From Candidatus Hermodarchaeota archaeon (GTDB taxonomy: Archaea > Asgardarchaeota > Hermodarchaeia > Hermodarchaeales > Hermodarchaeaceae): 57,922 bases of DNA. The notes under the pieces were generated by a model. The model saw only the letters and a program-made list of their open reading frames with translations, had not been told where the DNA came from and ran no database searches. The position numbers were made by a program, and so were the translations under genes. The first letter of the stretch is position 1, and every line of letters starts with the position of its first letter. The stretch spans positions 1 through 57,922 of the forward strand of contig JAEOUH010000008.1 in assembly GCA_016839365.1 (NCBI GenBank), in the 5' to 3' direction. This document shows positions 10,181 to 13,816 of the stretch, piece after piece.

Positions 10181-10357
10181 CTAAAAGTCGTAGGCCATCA
10201 AGGTCTTACGCTTGTTGGCTTTGGCTCGGTGTGTAGCCTTGGTGATGATTGCTTCGACAGCATCATCGATTGCTTTGTAAGCGTCTGCAGAAACATTGAA
10301 GCCCATTTTGTGGGCTTTCGCAGCAATCGCTTTCTTAACGATTTTATCAACAGCCAA
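10181..10357 (-). CDS. Short histone-fold protein (truncated-alpha3 / DUF1931-type histone)
   Basis: VSADAYKAIDDAVEAIITKATHRAKANKRKTLMAYDF carries the RKT..D histone signature; TTG start with GGAGG 8 nt upstream. Confidence 0.8.
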   Translation of the reverse strand: MAVDKIVKKAIAAKAHKMGFNVSADAYKAIDDAVEAIITKATHRAKANKRKTLMAYDF

Positions 10358-10522
10358 TTTTGTATCCTCCAACTTGAAGACACGGCTTCTCCTCCCATTT
10401 GAATACGAGAAGAAACGCCGCTAAATTGAGGTTAGGCGACTTTTGCTTTAAAAAGATTTCTGTCGCCTTCTTTGCCCTTATAAAGTATATAAATCGGCTT
10501 TTTTTCCGAAAAAAAGGTTTAC

Positions 10523-11062
10523 TTAGATGTGAAAATCCAAACCTTGTTCAGCTAAAGCTTTTTCCAAAACCCGCTGCCTCTCTTCGTAATTTCGTATCGC
10601 TTCACCGAGCATTGGCAGAAGGTCTTGATCTTCGCCTTTAAAGCTTCGATTCAGCGTTTCAAAGGCCGGAATCATATCTGCACCAACCCGTTGAGCACCC
10701 AAAGCTGCCATCAGTAGGGCTTCTCGCTCCTTTTTCGTCTGAACAGTCTCACTCTGTGCAAGAAAATAATAGAAAACGCTCTTGATGAGCTTAAAAGCCC
10801 AAAGAATACCAAAGAATTGCCACATCTGTGCTTTGGGCTCTTTAGGCATCTCCAGGAGTTGTTGCAGAATCTTACCTACCTCTACTCGGGCTTCGGAAAA
10901 TGTCTCTGCAGCTTTCTTAAATTCCCCTTGTTTGGCTAGCGCGCTTCCATTATTCATCAGTTCAAAATACCGTTTAGGGAGAGCATGAATCATTTTGTAG
11001 GTATGAGCTTCTCTCTCAATGCGGCTCTTTTCGGTCTCTTCATTTTCGGGCACGTCGCACAT
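10523..11062 (-). CDS. Alpha-helical/TPR-like hypothetical protein
   Basis: GSALAKQGEFKKAAETFSEA TPR-like helix pair; overlaps the end of the upstream gene. Confidence 0.55.
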   Translation of the reverse strand: MCDVPENEETEKSRIEREAHTYKMIHALPKRYFELMNNGSALAKQGEFKKAAETFSEARVEVGKILQQLLEMPKEPKAQMWQFFGILWAFKLIKSVFYYFLAQSETVQTKKEREALLMAALGAQRVGADMIPAFETLNRSFKGEDQDLLPMLGEAIRNYEERQRVLEKALAEQGLDFHI

Positions 11063-12065
11063 AACCTCCTTCTAACGCCAGTTCTTTGAAGATTCGATAA
11101 TCATCTTTTGCCAATCGAAGGAGCTTAGCAGCCTCATCATCTGGGATTTTATCCGTCTGTGCAAGAAGCTTAGCTACTCCTCTAATCCTTTCCCGGACGG
11201 TAAGAAACGCCGTTTCACTAATATTCCGCAGTTCCACACCACTTTCTCCTAGCACCTTCTCGGCGTGTGCGACGGTATCAGCTATTCCTAATGATTTGGC
11301 TTCAAAGCCCACTGGCAAAACGATGTGTTCTTCAACTAATAGACAGGTGTATGTGAGTCCCATATTGGATGAATCTGCAAAGGTTTCCTCATAAGCGCGA
11401 TTGGGGAGACTAAGAATGAACGACATGTTCTGTGGCCTATCGCTTAGCACTTGCAGCGCTGCACCTGCATCATCGAAATACATTACAGGAATTCGTCGAC
11501 CACGCATCGTCTGAAGTGCTCGAATCACCGACTGGTTTCTTGATTTCCGTCCAACAGCGAGAATTGGCGTGCCCCGCAGGAGCCCATACAAAAGAATGTC
11601 TAATCCTGGACCAAAACGACGCCAAAGCCTAATAATTGCCGGACGGAGAGCTTCAGTTTCCAGAGGTTTTTCGAAAGTTGGTAGATAATCTTGCACAACC
11701 TCTCTAGCTACGGGATTGAAATCTCGAAAGGGTGCAATTTCTCCGGTCCAGCGACGTAGCTGCTTTTGATAGCGGTCCAAGAATAAGGCGTTGAGGGTCT
11801 TGAGTACTGCCATAATTGAGACGTCATCGTCTTCTCGGTCGGCGAGGGCCACGCTCAAGACGGGATCTGCGAAATCCCAGACGAACTGATAATTACCCGT
11901 TTCGATGGTTGTGACATCATCTGCAAGGAGGTCTTGCCCAAACATACGAAGAGCTGAGAGAAATCCTGAGACGAGTTCAGGACTTACGTTCACTGTCATC
12001 GGGCCAAACCCAATAGAAGTCAGCACCAGTCCGCTTTTATGAAAATGGTACAGTTGGTGTATCAT
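11040..12065 (-). CDS. Longin domain + DENN-like domain protein
   Basis: Asgard-type longin MIHQLYHFHKSGLVL..LVSGFLSALRMFG..FLDRY..WTGEIAPFRDF; C-terminal LLYGLLRGTPILAVG resembles the cDENN core. Confidence 0.7.
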   Translation of the reverse strand: MIHQLYHFHKSGLVLTSIGFGPMTVNVSPELVSGFLSALRMFGQDLLADDVTTIETGNYQFVWDFADPVLSVALADREDDDVSIMAVLKTLNALFLDRYQKQLRRWTGEIAPFRDFNPVAREVVQDYLPTFEKPLETEALRPAIIRLWRRFGPGLDILLYGLLRGTPILAVGRKSRNQSVIRALQTMRGRRIPVMYFDDAGAALQVLSDRPQNMSFILSLPNRAYEETFADSSNMGLTYTCLLVEEHIVLPVGFEAKSLGIADTVAHAEKVLGESGVELRNISETAFLTVRERIRGVAKLLAQTDKIPDDEAAKLLRLAKDDYRIFKELALEGGYVRRARK

Positions 12066-12181
12066 GGCAAGCCCGTGGTCATGTTCGTAAGTTCGTATAA
12101 ATGGGTTTCCACTGAATTTCAAAACCTAAGAAGAAATTTCCAAAGTACGCAAAACAGAAGAGGTCGATTCTGAAGCCGTTG

Positions 12182-13054
12182 TTAATCGGCGCGAAGTCTG
12201 CGGCGAAACCACAATGCACGAACGAGTAAGATCACGATGATAACTAGCACAATGGTCGCAATTGCAGCTGCAATGTAAATTGGTAAGGGGTTTGGCGGAG
12301 GGCTTAACGGGATGTTTGTGGAAAGTATGTGGTAATAATAGGATAGATAAATGAATGAGGAGTCAACGGAAGTAATCCGGGTTTCATTTGCTTGGTAGTA
12401 GATGCCAACATCTTGGTCAATGACGTATGTGGTCTCGGTATCTTGATCTTGGCTAGAGCTTTGGTTGAAGAATCGATAACACATTTGTTCGCTATCTCCC
12501 AGCGTGAATGCTGAGTAAGTGATGGATTGCCAAAGGCTTCCCCCAACAATTACATTTAATCCAGGAGTAATGGTGCTCAGAGTAGTGTCATCAAGGAAGA
12601 ATCCAGGAAGCCCCTGGTTTATGGGGTAGTCAACGAGACCAGAGCTCACCCCCGTTGGAGCCGGAGCAGGAACAGATCCGTTTAAGGTGATCGTGGTTTG
12701 CCAGGAACTGCTATTCGACACTGTGACGACGTTGCTGAAGACTATCACTGAGAAATTGTAATAGGCCTGGAAAATAGCACCATTCGGAATAAGTTGGATC
12801 ACCAGGATAGACAAATTCACATGTTGATGCCAATGCATGGTATAGTTTCCGGGAACAAGAACGAGCTCCGTCCATTGATTGATCTGGACCGAGGATTGGT
12901 TGTAGAGTATGTTAATGTAGCCATAATTATAGGTCGTCAAATGACCTTCACTTGGAACATAGGCTGTCACATGAAAGGCCTGCAATGCATAGGAATTCCA
13001 TCCAGTGGCCAGGATGAAGAGAATGAGGGCTATGCTCAGTGTTTGTCGAGACAT
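12182..13054 (-). CDS. Secreted, C-terminally anchored surface (glyco)protein
   Basis: Signal peptide, many N-x-S/T sequons, Pro linker + TM helix + RRR tail. Confidence 0.7.
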   Translation of the reverse strand: MSRQTLSIALILFILATGWNSYALQAFHVTAYVPSEGHLTTYNYGYINILYNQSSVQINQWTELVLVPGNYTMHWHQHVNLSILVIQLIPNGAIFQAYYNFSVIVFSNVVTVSNSSSWQTTITLNGSVPAPAPTGVSSGLVDYPINQGLPGFFLDDTTLSTITPGLNVIVGGSLWQSITYSAFTLGDSEQMCYRFFNQSSSQDQDTETTYVIDQDVGIYYQANETRITSVDSSFIYLSYYYHILSTNIPLSPPPNPLPIYIAAAIATIVLVIIVILLVRALWFRRRLRAD

Positions 13055-13243: not shown

Positions 13244-13816
13244 ATGATGAGCGACGAAGAACAACTCCGTCGGGCAATTGAAGAACACCTTGAGAATGCT
13301 GAAGATTTCATCCGTGAGGGTAAACGATCACGCGCCTTTTTAGAATTCAAGGAAGCGGCAGGAAAACTAGAGGCAGTTGGGGGAACCAGTCAGCTCGAAC
13401 AATTATGGGCACATGCGGCAACAGGCTTTACGGCTGCAGAAGCACCTTTCGAGGCAGGTCAAAGCTTTCTACGAGTTGCGGACCTTGAAATCCAAGCCGG
13501 ACGAAAAAGCGAAGCCCGTGACTCCTATCTTGCGGCAGCCAACTCCTTCTTTGCAGTTCGTAACAAGAATCAAGACCTTTGGGTGTCAATCACACAAGCT
13601 GTTGAAAAAGCCATTGATCTGTCAATCGCCCTCCACGAAAATTCGCTTGCCATTGAACTGCTTTACAAAAATGCCACTATTCATCATCGCGAAACTGGCT
13701 TCACCTTCGACGCGATCAATACCCTCGAACGCGCTAAAAAGCTGTTAGAGAAAGAGCCCAATCACCCTCTCTCCCAAGAGATTGACGATTTATTCCAAGA
13801 ACTCGTCGATCATTAA
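13244..13816 (+). CDS. TPR-like protein resembling NSF attachment protein (alpha-SNAP)
   Basis: AGQSFLRVADLEIQAGRKSEARDSYLAAANSF..AVEKAIDL..DAINTLERA helical-hairpin pattern. Confidence 0.6.
   Translation: MMSDEEQLRRAIEEHLENAEDFIREGKRSRAFLEFKEAAGKLEAVGGTSQLEQLWAHAATGFTAAEAPFEAGQSFLRVADLEIQAGRKSEARDSYLAAANSFFAVRNKNQDLWVSITQAVEKAIDLSIALHENSLAIELLYKNATIHHRETGFTFDAINTLERAKKLLEKEPNHPLSQEIDDLFQELVDH

What the first reader, a model, noticed from the sequence alone, without database searches (positions are those of the whole stretch)
11040..12065. Longin + DENN-like (folliculin/C9orf72-type) protein
A clear Asgard-type longin domain is followed by a linker and then FGPGLDILLYGLLRGTPILAVGRKSRNQSVIRALQTM. 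As I recall it, this parallels the helix-strand-helix start of the folliculin cDENN core. An alpha/beta region and terminal helices follow, possibly dDENN. Established: uDENN(longin)-cDENN-dDENN proteins are GEFs or GAPs for Rab/Rag/Arf GTPases. Inference: a compact full DENN module that may regulate Rab-like GTPases such as the two in this window.
Basis: partly seen in the sequence, partly recalled or inferred. Interest (0 to 1): 0.75.

Follow-up and report, generated by a model that had tools for sequence, protein, structure and literature searches.

The report
Compact Asgard longin-DENN protein
This unannotated 341-residue gene of a Hermodarchaeial (Asgard) archaeon is predicted with high confidence to fold like the complete eukaryotic DENN module that regulates small GTPases; such proteins are already known in Asgard archaea, so it is a new, very diverged member of a known kind.

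Summary
Window 11040-12065 (- strand) is a real, conserved 341-aa gene. Residues 1-128 are a longin domain. Residues 142-341 fold as cDENN plus dDENN.

An exhaustive comparison of the C-terminal model with 48,161 solved chains puts six chains from four DENN proteins on top: DENND10, folliculin, DENND1A and SMCR8 (Z 9.4-13.6, 173-181 of 202 residues aligned). The next fold scores Z 7.3 over 55 residues. No sequence profile reaches significance, so membership rests on predicted structure plus weak, convergent sequence hints.

Its proposed link to the two Rab-like GTPases in the window is not: the genome has 27 Ras-family loci, and none lies within 8 kb of this gene in 17 related loci.

New here:
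- Nearly every Hermodarchaeial genome searched also carries a second, paralogous longin-DENN family.
- Both families lack the GP motif and the arginine finger of folliculin-type GAP longins. An Arg-finger GAP is therefore unlikely, and a GEF or non-catalytic platform is more likely.
- The gene overlaps a conserved TPR-like helical partner gene by 23 nt.

DENN and folliculin-like proteins in Asgard archaea were published in 2020/21. This scan already reported the same family from another genome (e1-5395798), with the same verdict.

The parts
11040..12065 (-). Whole CDS, 341 aa plus stop (P0001): the longin-DENN protein, family A
   Evidence: ORF list, translation, homologue alignment fixing the start, AF2 model with pLDDT 85.6 and pTM 0.77
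11682..12065 (-). Longin (uDENN) domain, residues 1-128
   Evidence: VIA-align: Sec22b 1ifq_A Z 14.8, 122 aligned, rmsd 2.6; also VAMP7 and TRAPP longins. About 100 HMMER hits cover only residues 1-~128; one of them (P0048) passes the Pfam Fuz_longin_1 cut-off. The target's own hit is sub-threshold at E 0.009.
11643..11681 (-). Linker, residues 129-141; poorly conserved and of lower confidence
   Evidence: pLDDT block 131-140 = 64; variable columns in the alignment
11250..11642 (-). cDENN-like alpha/beta core, residues ~142-272. Five strands: 168-171, 194-196, 217-220, 239-243, 248-252. The boundary with dDENN is approximate.
   Evidence: DSSP of the models. VIA-align: DENND10 Z 13.6, FLCN Z 11.9, DENND1A Z 11.0, SMCR8 Z 10.0.
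11505..11615 (-). It is the most widely conserved sequence motif of the C-terminal half.
   Evidence: sequence; secondary structure. The same profile positions 4-50 are matched in 327-366-aa ORFs of another Asgard family. Sub-threshold Folliculin_C matches to profile positions 15-53 and 15-71 fall on the equivalent stretch of the paralogue and of a relative.
11043..11249 (-). dDENN-like all-helical tail, residues ~273-341, ending in a basic tail
   Evidence: Helices 277-303, 309-315, 320-332, 335-340. DENN alignments run to the ends of both model and target: FLCN to residue 558, DENND10 to 355 of 357.
10523..11062 (-). 179-aa all-helical, TPR-like partner gene that overlaps the 3' end of the longin-DENN gene by 23 nt
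   Evidence: ORF coordinates. The overlap or abutment and the protein are conserved in both genera of the class. Residues 29-58 match designed consensus TPR proteins at E 3e-5. No Pfam hit.
12182..13054 (-). Upstream same-strand gene, 116 nt away: 290-aa predicted single-pass membrane protein (N-terminal signal-like segment, C-terminal hydrophobic anchor, short basic tail). Membership of the unit is uncertain.
   Evidence: Sequence read directly; conserved position in 15 of 17 related loci; no Pfam hit

Best explanation
The gene encodes a minimal, complete DENN module: uDENN/longin, cDENN and dDENN in 341 residues. It is one of two paralogous longin-DENN families found in nearly every Hermodarchaeial genome searched. 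Shown here: the gene is real and conserved, and the predicted fold of each part matches. Inferred: like eukaryotic DENN modules, it binds one of the organism's many Ras-superfamily small GTPases. It would act either as a nucleotide-exchange factor or as a non-catalytic platform or adaptor subunit, comparable to DENND10, C9orf72 or FNIP. It is probably not an arginine-finger GAP of the folliculin/SMCR8/NPRL2 kind, because the two longin motifs that define those are absent. It is probably made together with, and bound to, the TPR-like helical protein whose gene overlaps its 3' end. The client GTPase cannot be named from gene context.
For: Fold:
- The full model has pLDDT 85.6. The C-half model has pLDDT 92.4 and pTM 0.89.
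- Foldseek top hits for the whole protein are C9orf72, FLCN, DENND1B and DENND10.
- For the C-half alone, Foldseek gives FLCN-C 3v42_B at E 5.8e-4 and TM 0.54/0.55, then SMCR8, DENND1B and C9orf72. Unrelated hits below them have TM <=0.32.
- Exhaustive VIA-align places only DENN proteins in its top six, with Z 9.4-13.6 and 173-181 of 202 residues aligned. There is then a gap to Z 7.3 over 55 residues.
- The longin domain scores Z 14.8 to Sec22b.

Independent of structure:
- Language-model features of residues 140-341 are nearest to DENND10/FAM45A-like, Folliculin_C/SMCR8_C and C9orf72 clusters (0.84-0.86, leads only).

Topology:
- It fits the published definition: a five-stranded alpha/beta sandwich without NTP-binding residues, followed by an all-alpha dDENN (PMC3521125).

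Not a GAP type:
- The loop before beta2 is K/R-S-G-[LMI], with no Pro. The beta4-beta5 turn is [FEVY..]-A-[DE]-P, with Arg in 1 of 24 sequences.
- The literature places the Arg finger in that loop and the GP motif before beta2.

Partner:
- The conserved overlapping TPR-like gene.
Against: - No sequence profile reaches significance. Pfam, NCBIfam and PDB sequence searches give only a sub-threshold longin hit. Pfam DENN-clan models (DENN, Folliculin_C, SPA, Avl9, C9orf72-like) find nothing significant in the genome.
- TM-scores to solved DENN domains are moderate (about 0.5-0.55), with rmsd 3.6-3.8 A.
- The models are predictions from a shallow alignment of 25-27 sequences.
- No GTPase gene is linked to the locus.
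- No binding or activity has been tested. DENND10, the best match, has no firmly established GEF activity (my knowledge).
Confidence: 0.8

Rival explanations
1. Folliculin/SMCR8-type GAP. The protein, alone or as a heterodimer with its paralogue, stimulates GTP hydrolysis by a Rag/Arf/Rab-like GTPase through a catalytic arginine in its longin domain.
For: The architecture matches FLCN, SMCR8 and C9orf72, and FLCN and C9orf72 are among the top fold hits. A paralogous longin-DENN partner exists in the same genome, as in FLCN-FNIP and C9orf72-SMCR8. Sub-threshold Folliculin_C hits fall on the cDENN start of the paralogue and of a relative.
Against: Both defining motifs are missing in family A and family B. 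There is no Pro after the conserved Gly before beta2. There is no conserved Arg in the beta4-beta5 loop, which is a tight two-residue turn in A (motif definitions). Some B members have a variable low-complexity insert in that loop, with no conserved Arg.
Confidence: 0.1
2. The C-terminal half is a degenerate P-loop/secretion-ATPase-like domain followed by a winged-helix DNA-binding tail. The protein would then be a nucleotide- or DNA-binding regulator, not a DENN protein.
For: Lower fold matches include GspE/FlaI/PilT-type ATPase domains (Z 6.3-7.1, 108-151 aligned). wHTH domains such as DeoR match the last ~55 residues (Z 7.3). The C-terminus is basic.
Against: These matches cover only parts and score well below the DENN matches, which cover 173-181 of 202 residues including the tail. 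There is no Walker A: the strand-loop-helix reads V-G-R-K-S-R-N and varies within the family. The cDENN fold is known to resemble a minimal P-loop topology without nucleotide-binding residues (PMC3521125).
Confidence: 0.05
3. Structural convergence or an over-confident prediction. The longin domain is real, but the C-terminal half only mimics a DENN fold and has an unrelated, lineage-specific function.
For: No significant sequence link to any named DENN family. The alignment is shallow and comes from one narrow class.
Against: Three consecutive domains occur in the canonical order and at the canonical sizes. Two independently run models agree. Language-model neighbours are all DENN-clan. Sub-threshold Folliculin_C and C9orf72-like hits appear in the paralogue and in relatives at the expected positions.
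Confidence: 0.05

Closest known systems
DENND10 (FAM45A), 357-aa subunit of the human Commander complex (PDB 8p0v chain M)
   Same: Best structural match for the C-terminal half: Z 13.6, 180 residues aligned, rmsd 3.6. Same compact size and same architecture (longin, cDENN, dDENN and nothing else). In the solved complex it is bound to helical coiled-coil partners (entry title). Here a helical partner gene is translationally coupled.
   Different: 11% sequence identity and no detectable sequence-profile relationship. The partner here is TPR-like, not a CCDC22/93 coiled coil. No Commander components were looked for or implied.
Folliculin (FLCN; PDB 3v42, 6nzd) and SMCR8/C9orf72 (PDB 6lt0, 7mge): longin-DENN GAP complexes
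   Same: Longin plus DENN architecture. FLCN C-terminal domain: Z 11.9, 175 of 199 residues aligned, Foldseek E 5.8e-4. C9orf72 aligns over 285 residues of the full model. A paralogous second longin-DENN protein exists in the genome, as for the eukaryotic heterodimers.
   Different: Lacks the GP motif and the beta4-beta5 arginine finger. No long inserts. Not next to Rag-type GTPases. Heterodimerisation untested.
DENND1A/DENND1B Rab35 GEF modules (PDB 6ekk, 3tw8)
   Same: Complete tripartite DENN module. Z 11.0-11.5 with 180-181 residues aligned.
   Different: 9-13% identity. The Pfam DENN model does not detect it. No Rab35-like client is identified.
Asgard DENN-domain and FLCN-like proteins (Liu et al., bioRxiv 10.1101/2020.10.19.343400) and Asgard GAP-type longins (PMC12290439)
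   Same: An Asgard archaeal protein with a eukaryote-like longin-DENN organisation. The paper states that some Heimdallarchaea have the exact FLCN domain organisation, and that DENN families are expanded in the Loki, Hel and Heimdall lineages.
   Different: This family and its paralogue are confined to Hermodarchaeia-type genomes in the searches made. The gene does not sit in the published roadblock + Rab-like GTPase + DENN operon. It lacks the GP/Arg motifs that the 2025 paper reports for the Asgard FLCN/SMCR8-type longins.

Membership tests
DENN module (uDENN-cDENN-dDENN; definition of Zhang et al. 2012, PMC3521125) | N-terminal longin (uDENN) domain | tested here: met
   Residues 1-128: Z 14.8 to Sec22b longin, 122 aligned, rmsd 2.6. 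HMMER relatives include a protein that passes the Pfam Fuz_longin_1 cut-off.
DENN module (uDENN-cDENN-dDENN; definition of Zhang et al. 2012, PMC3521125) | Central alpha/beta three-layered sandwich with a five-stranded sheet, in a minimal P-loop-like topology but without nucleotide-binding residues | tested here: met
   Five strands alternate with helices in both models. The top six of 48,161 chains are all DENN proteins, Z 9.4-13.6. No Walker A in the family alignment. This rests on a predicted, not solved, structure.
DENN module (uDENN-cDENN-dDENN; definition of Zhang et al. 2012, PMC3521125) | C-terminal all-alpha dDENN domain directly after the core | tested here: met
   Helices 277-340. 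Alignments to FLCN and DENND10 extend to the C-termini of both.
DENN module (uDENN-cDENN-dDENN; definition of Zhang et al. 2012, PMC3521125) | Significant match to a DENN-clan sequence profile (Pfam DENN, Folliculin_C, SPA, Avl9, C9orf72-like) | tested here: not met
   No hit for the protein at E<=10. Six-frame genome searches give nothing for DENN, SPA, Avl9 or C9orf72-like. Folliculin_C gives only E 0.29, on the paralogue. Relatives in another Asgard family reach E 0.01. No profile-profile search against Pfam was available.
DENN module (uDENN-cDENN-dDENN; definition of Zhang et al. 2012, PMC3521125) | Binds a small GTPase and changes its nucleotide state | not testable with these tools
   Needs biochemistry.
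Longin-type GAP subunits (FLCN, SMCR8, NPRL2) | GP motif at the end of the loop before longin strand beta2 (PMC12290439) | tested here: not met
   Family A has K/R-S-G followed by L, M or I in 21 of 21 sequences that cover the site. Family B has S-G-E. The Gly is kept and the Pro is absent.
Longin-type GAP subunits (FLCN, SMCR8, NPRL2) | Catalytic arginine finger in the longin beta4-beta5 loop (bioRxiv 10.1101/2020.04.16.045708) | tested here: not met
   The loop between strands 59-66 and 69-76 is a two-residue turn (consensus F-A-D-P). Arg occurs in 1 of 24 sequences. Placement relies on the predicted secondary structure, not on a residue-level superposition.
Longin-type GAP subunits (FLCN, SMCR8, NPRL2) | Obligate heterodimer with a paralogous longin(-DENN) partner | tested here: inconclusive
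   A paralogue with a homologous C-half exists in nearly every genome of the class. It is unlinked, and no interaction could be modelled or measured.
Published Asgard operon: LAMTOR1-like roadblock + Rab-like GTPase + DENN protein (Liu et al.) | DENN gene adjacent to a small GTPase gene and a roadblock gene | tested here: not met
   No GTPase lies within 8 kb in 17 related loci. A roadblock gene (8910-9323) lies 1.7 kb away but behind an opposite-strand gene.
P-loop NTPases | Walker A motif GxxxxGK[ST] after the first core strand | tested here: not met
   The sequence at that position is V-G-R-K-S-R-N, and it varies among homologues (Q-K-A-R, P-K-R-S; paralogue A-K-K-K-K).

The most novel reading that the evidence does not exclude
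The two unlinked paralogous longin-DENN families (A, this gene; B, on contig C61) form a heterodimer through their longin domains, joined by the co-translated TPR-like protein. This would be an archaeal counterpart of the FLCN-FNIP and C9orf72-SMCR8 pairs that lacks the arginine finger. It would show that paired longin-DENN platforms for small GTPases predate eukaryotes, and that GAP catalysis was a later addition to a GEF or scaffold ancestor.
Probability: 0.15. Interest if true: 0.7.

Novelty: new member of a known kind. Interest (0 to 1): 0.42.

Why it matters
DENN modules are central regulators of Rab, Rag and Arf GTPases in eukaryotic membrane traffic, and their presence in Asgard archaea bears on how that machinery arose.

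This family adds a very small, domain-pure DENN module (341 aa, confidently modelled) from a lineage where none had been singled out. It comes with a paralogue and a co-translated helical partner. That makes it a convenient object for asking what an archaeal DENN module does: exchange factor, GAP or scaffold.

It also shows that ordinary profile annotation misses such proteins entirely, since all database copies are labelled hypothetical and carry no Pfam domain. It does not change the current picture, because Asgard DENN and folliculin-like proteins are already published.

Tried and rejected
Searches that gave nothing useful:
- Pfam, NCBIfam and PDB sequence searches of the protein, and a profile of 27 homologues against PDB, gave only noise plus a weak longin hit.
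- Pfam DENN, SPA, Avl9 and C9orf72-like models searched six-frame in the genome found nothing.
- Two large-database profile searches with a C-half-only alignment (A4) aimed to bridge to named DENN families. They returned only families A and B.

Tools and papers not available:
Synteny was done instead with the search for related loci and the genome search.
- The supplement of Liu et al. is not held, so I could not check whether their asCOGs already label this family as DENN.
- PMC10050129 is not held.

Ideas rejected:
- The two Rab-like GTPases in the window as partners. They lie 29 and 44 kb away, are 2 of 27 such loci, and are not syntenic with the gene.
- The TTG start at 12122.
- A coupled helical partner for paralogue B. 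None was found downstream.
- A GTPase operon around a distant relative. Only an unlinked Arf-longin fusion lies 2.6 kb away on the other strand.

Limits:
No residue-level superposition on FLCN Arg164 or surface-conservation mapping was possible.

Full report
**The gene**

- The ORF at 11040-12122 on the minus strand is best started at the ATG at 12065. This gives 341 aa (P0001).
- In an alignment of 24 homologues, conservation begins exactly at that Met (MIHQLY...). Longer annotated N-termini are unconserved.
- A TTTATA element lies at 12096-12101, about 33 nt upstream of this ATG (read by eye, not tested). That would fit an archaeal promoter for this start.
- The gene is conserved. 42 database proteins match at 51-96% identity, mostly full length. 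All are 'hypothetical' with no precomputed Pfam domain.
- Record titles of related contigs name Hermodarchaeota, including Ca. Hermodarchaeum yapensis.
- A clear ortholog is present in 17 of the 19 genomes of the class. The two without one are 72-75% complete.

**What sequence methods see**

- Pfam gives only a sub-threshold Fuz_longin_1 hit (E 0.009). NCBIfam and PDB sequence searches give noise.
- A full HMMER scan of 1.84 billion representatives finds 107 proteins. About 100 of them match only residues 1-~128.
- One such relative passes the Pfam longin cut-off. The N-terminal domain therefore belongs to the large Asgard longin radiation.
- The C-terminal half matches only its own family and a few partial relatives.

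**Structure**

- AlphaFold2 on a 27-sequence alignment gives pLDDT 85.6 and pTM 0.77.
- Foldseek against the PDB ranks C9orf72, FLCN, DENND1B and DENND10 at the top with near-full-length alignments.
- VIA-align separates the two halves:
  - Residues 1-128 are a longin: Sec22b Z 14.8, 122 aligned, rmsd 2.6.
  - Residues 142-340 match DENND10 (Z 13.7, 178 aligned), the FLCN C-terminal domain (Z 11.7, 175 of 196) and DENND1B (Z 11.5, 180 aligned).
- To remove the influence of the longin, I modelled residues 140-341 alone: pLDDT 92.4, pTM 0.89.
- Foldseek on that model puts the FLCN C-terminal crystal structure first (E 5.8e-4, TM 0.54/0.55). SMCR8, DENND1B, C9orf72, DENND1A and DENND10 follow. 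Unrelated hits have TM <=0.32.
- An exhaustive alignment to 48,161 PDB representatives, independent of Foldseek, gives six DENN chains on top: DENND10 13.6, FLCN 11.9 and 11.7, DENND1A 11.0, SMCR8 10.0 and 9.4. Each aligns 173-181 of 202 residues.
- After those six there is a drop to Z 7.3 for a 55-residue wHTH match, and Z 6-7 for partial secretion-ATPase matches.
- The topology fits the published definition of the module (PMC3521125). It has five strands alternating with helices, no nucleotide-binding motif, and an all-helical tail.
- Protein-language-model features of residues 140-341 are nearest to FAM45A/DENND10-like, Folliculin_C/SMCR8_C and C9orf72 clusters. Scores are 0.84-0.86, below the level that counts as more than a lead.

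**Weak sequence bridges**

- A profile of C-terminal halves only (A4) was searched across 301 genomes of the phylum. It finds families A and B in the class.
- It also finds, in 21 of 29 genomes of one other family, matches (E 1e-5 to 9e-4 per genome) to profile positions ~4-50. These lie inside ORFs of 327-366 aa.
- Those ORFs have a longin-like N-terminus and the same helix-strand-helix motif at the same relative position.
- One of them hits Pfam Folliculin_C positions 15-71 at E 0.01. Another hits C9orf72-like at E 0.0099.
- The best Folliculin_C match in the window's own genome (E 0.29) falls on the equivalent stretch of the paralogue.
- None of these is significant alone. They agree with each other and with the structure.

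**A second family**

- Most genomes of the class also carry a paralogue of about 350-400 aa. In this genome it is on contig C61 (L013:3633-4682).
- It is 29% identical to the target over residues 1-195.
- HHalign of the two families' C-terminal halves gives 94.8% probability, E 5e-8, over 183 columns. The paralogue is therefore also a longin-DENN protein.
- It is unlinked to the target and has no coupled helical partner.

**GAP or not**

- The literature defines the longin-type GAPs (FLCN, SMCR8, NPRL2) by two features.
  - A GP motif just before strand beta2 (PMC12290439).
  - An arginine finger in the beta4-beta5 loop (bioRxiv 10.1101/2020.04.16.045708).
- In family A the corresponding positions are K/R-S-G-[L/M/I] and a two-residue turn (consensus F-A-D-P), with Arg in 1 of 24 sequences.
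- Family B has S-G-E and no conserved Arg. Some members carry a variable low-complexity insert there.
- Both features are thus absent.
- This places the proteins with the non-GAP longins: DENND-type GEFs, or non-catalytic partners such as FNIP, C9orf72 and DENND10.
- The placement of these loops relies on the predicted secondary structure. I could not superpose coordinates.

**Context**

- The next gene downstream (10523-11062, same strand) overlaps the target by 23 nt.
- Both the overlap or abutment and the protein are conserved in both genera, at 41-88% identity. This suggests co-translation and a complex.
- The downstream protein is all-helical. Residues 29-58 match designed consensus TPR proteins (E 3e-5). 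Pfam and the atlas give no family.
- Upstream, 116 nt away on the same strand, is a conserved 290-aa predicted single-pass membrane protein.
- A roadblock gene (8910-9323), a histone-fold gene (10181-10372) and a SNAP/TPR-like gene (13244-13816) are nearby.
- The whole 12-kb region is syntenic across this narrow class, including unrelated metabolic genes. Proximity therefore carries little weight.
They lie 29 and 44 kb away, and they are 2 of 27 such loci in a 2.2-Mb genome.
- No GTPase lies within 8 kb of the gene in 17 related loci. The client cannot be inferred from gene order.
- Others have noted the same difficulty for Asgard GTPase regulators in general (PMC10933270).

**Comparison with what is known**

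- Liu et al. (bioRxiv 10.1101/2020.10.19.343400) made three relevant reports:
  - DENN-domain proteins in Asgard archaea;
  - a roadblock/Rab-like GTPase/DENN operon;
  - Heimdallarchaeial proteins with the exact FLCN organisation.
- The 2025 Traffic paper reported Asgard FLCN/SMCR8-type longins with GP and Arg motifs.
- The present protein is therefore a new member of a known kind. It is a lineage-restricted, sequence-isolated, minimal DENN module without the GAP motifs and outside the published operon.
- This scan had already followed up the same family from another genome (e1-5395798). It reached the same verdict, including DENND10 as closest structure and the overlapping helical partner. 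I reached mine independently before reading it.

**Verdict**

- Observation: confirmed.
- Interpretation: supported for the fold and architecture. It is not supported for the proposed GTPase partners, and it is refined from 'GEF or GAP' towards GEF or platform rather than Arg-finger GAP.
- Interest: moderate.

Noticed in passing
window 10523-11062 (-): 179-aa all-helical protein with a TPR-like stretch (residues 29-58 match designed consensus TPRs, E 3e-5). Its start overlaps the longin-DENN stop by 23 nt. Overlap or abutment is conserved in both genera of the class. No family assignment.
   Followed up: partly
L013:3633-4682 (+) = own genome, contig C61:16632-17681: Paralogous 349-aa longin-DENN protein (family B), present in most genomes of the class. 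Some species carry a 17-21-residue low-complexity insert in the longin beta4-beta5 loop, the loop that holds the Arg finger in FLCN/SMCR8.
   Followed up: partly
window 12182-13054 (-): Conserved 290-aa predicted type I membrane protein directly upstream on the same strand. It has a signal-like N-terminus, many N-x-S/T sites, a C-terminal anchor and a ~12-residue basic tail. It could be co-transcribed with the longin-DENN gene, but a TATA-like TTTATA at 12096-12101 suggests a separate promoter.
   Followed up: no
L051:743-1717 (+), L052:815-1819 (-), L057:744-1838 (-), L056:809-2209 (-): Other Asgard genomes (a different family of the phylum, 21 of 29 sampled) encode 325-467-aa proteins with a longin-like N-terminus and the same cDENN-start motif. 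They give sub-threshold Folliculin_C and C9orf72-like Pfam hits (E ~0.01). They are probably a wider superfamily of compact Asgard longin-DENN proteins. Their lineage could not be named.
   Followed up: partly
L059:9874-10836 (-): A 320-aa Arf-family GTPase fused to a C-terminal longin domain (Arf E 1e-35; Fuz_longin_1 E 1.9e-5). It lies 2.6 kb from one of those distant longin-DENN-like genes, on the opposite strand.
   Followed up: no
window 8910-9323 (-), 10181-10372 (-), 13244-13816 (+), 8135-8869 (-): Neighbouring genes: a Roadblock/LC7 protein (E 5e-9), a 63-aa histone-fold protein (E 9e-5, sub-threshold), a 190-aa SNAP/TPR-like protein (E 4e-8) and an Mrr_cat/NERD-like nuclease-fold protein. 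All are syntenic across the class, as are unrelated metabolic genes.
   Followed up: no
own genome (G000), 27 places listed: 27 Ras-family (PF00071) loci in a 2.2-Mb, 84%-complete genome. Several lie in ORFs of 270-370 aa, so they are probably fused to other domains.
   Followed up: no
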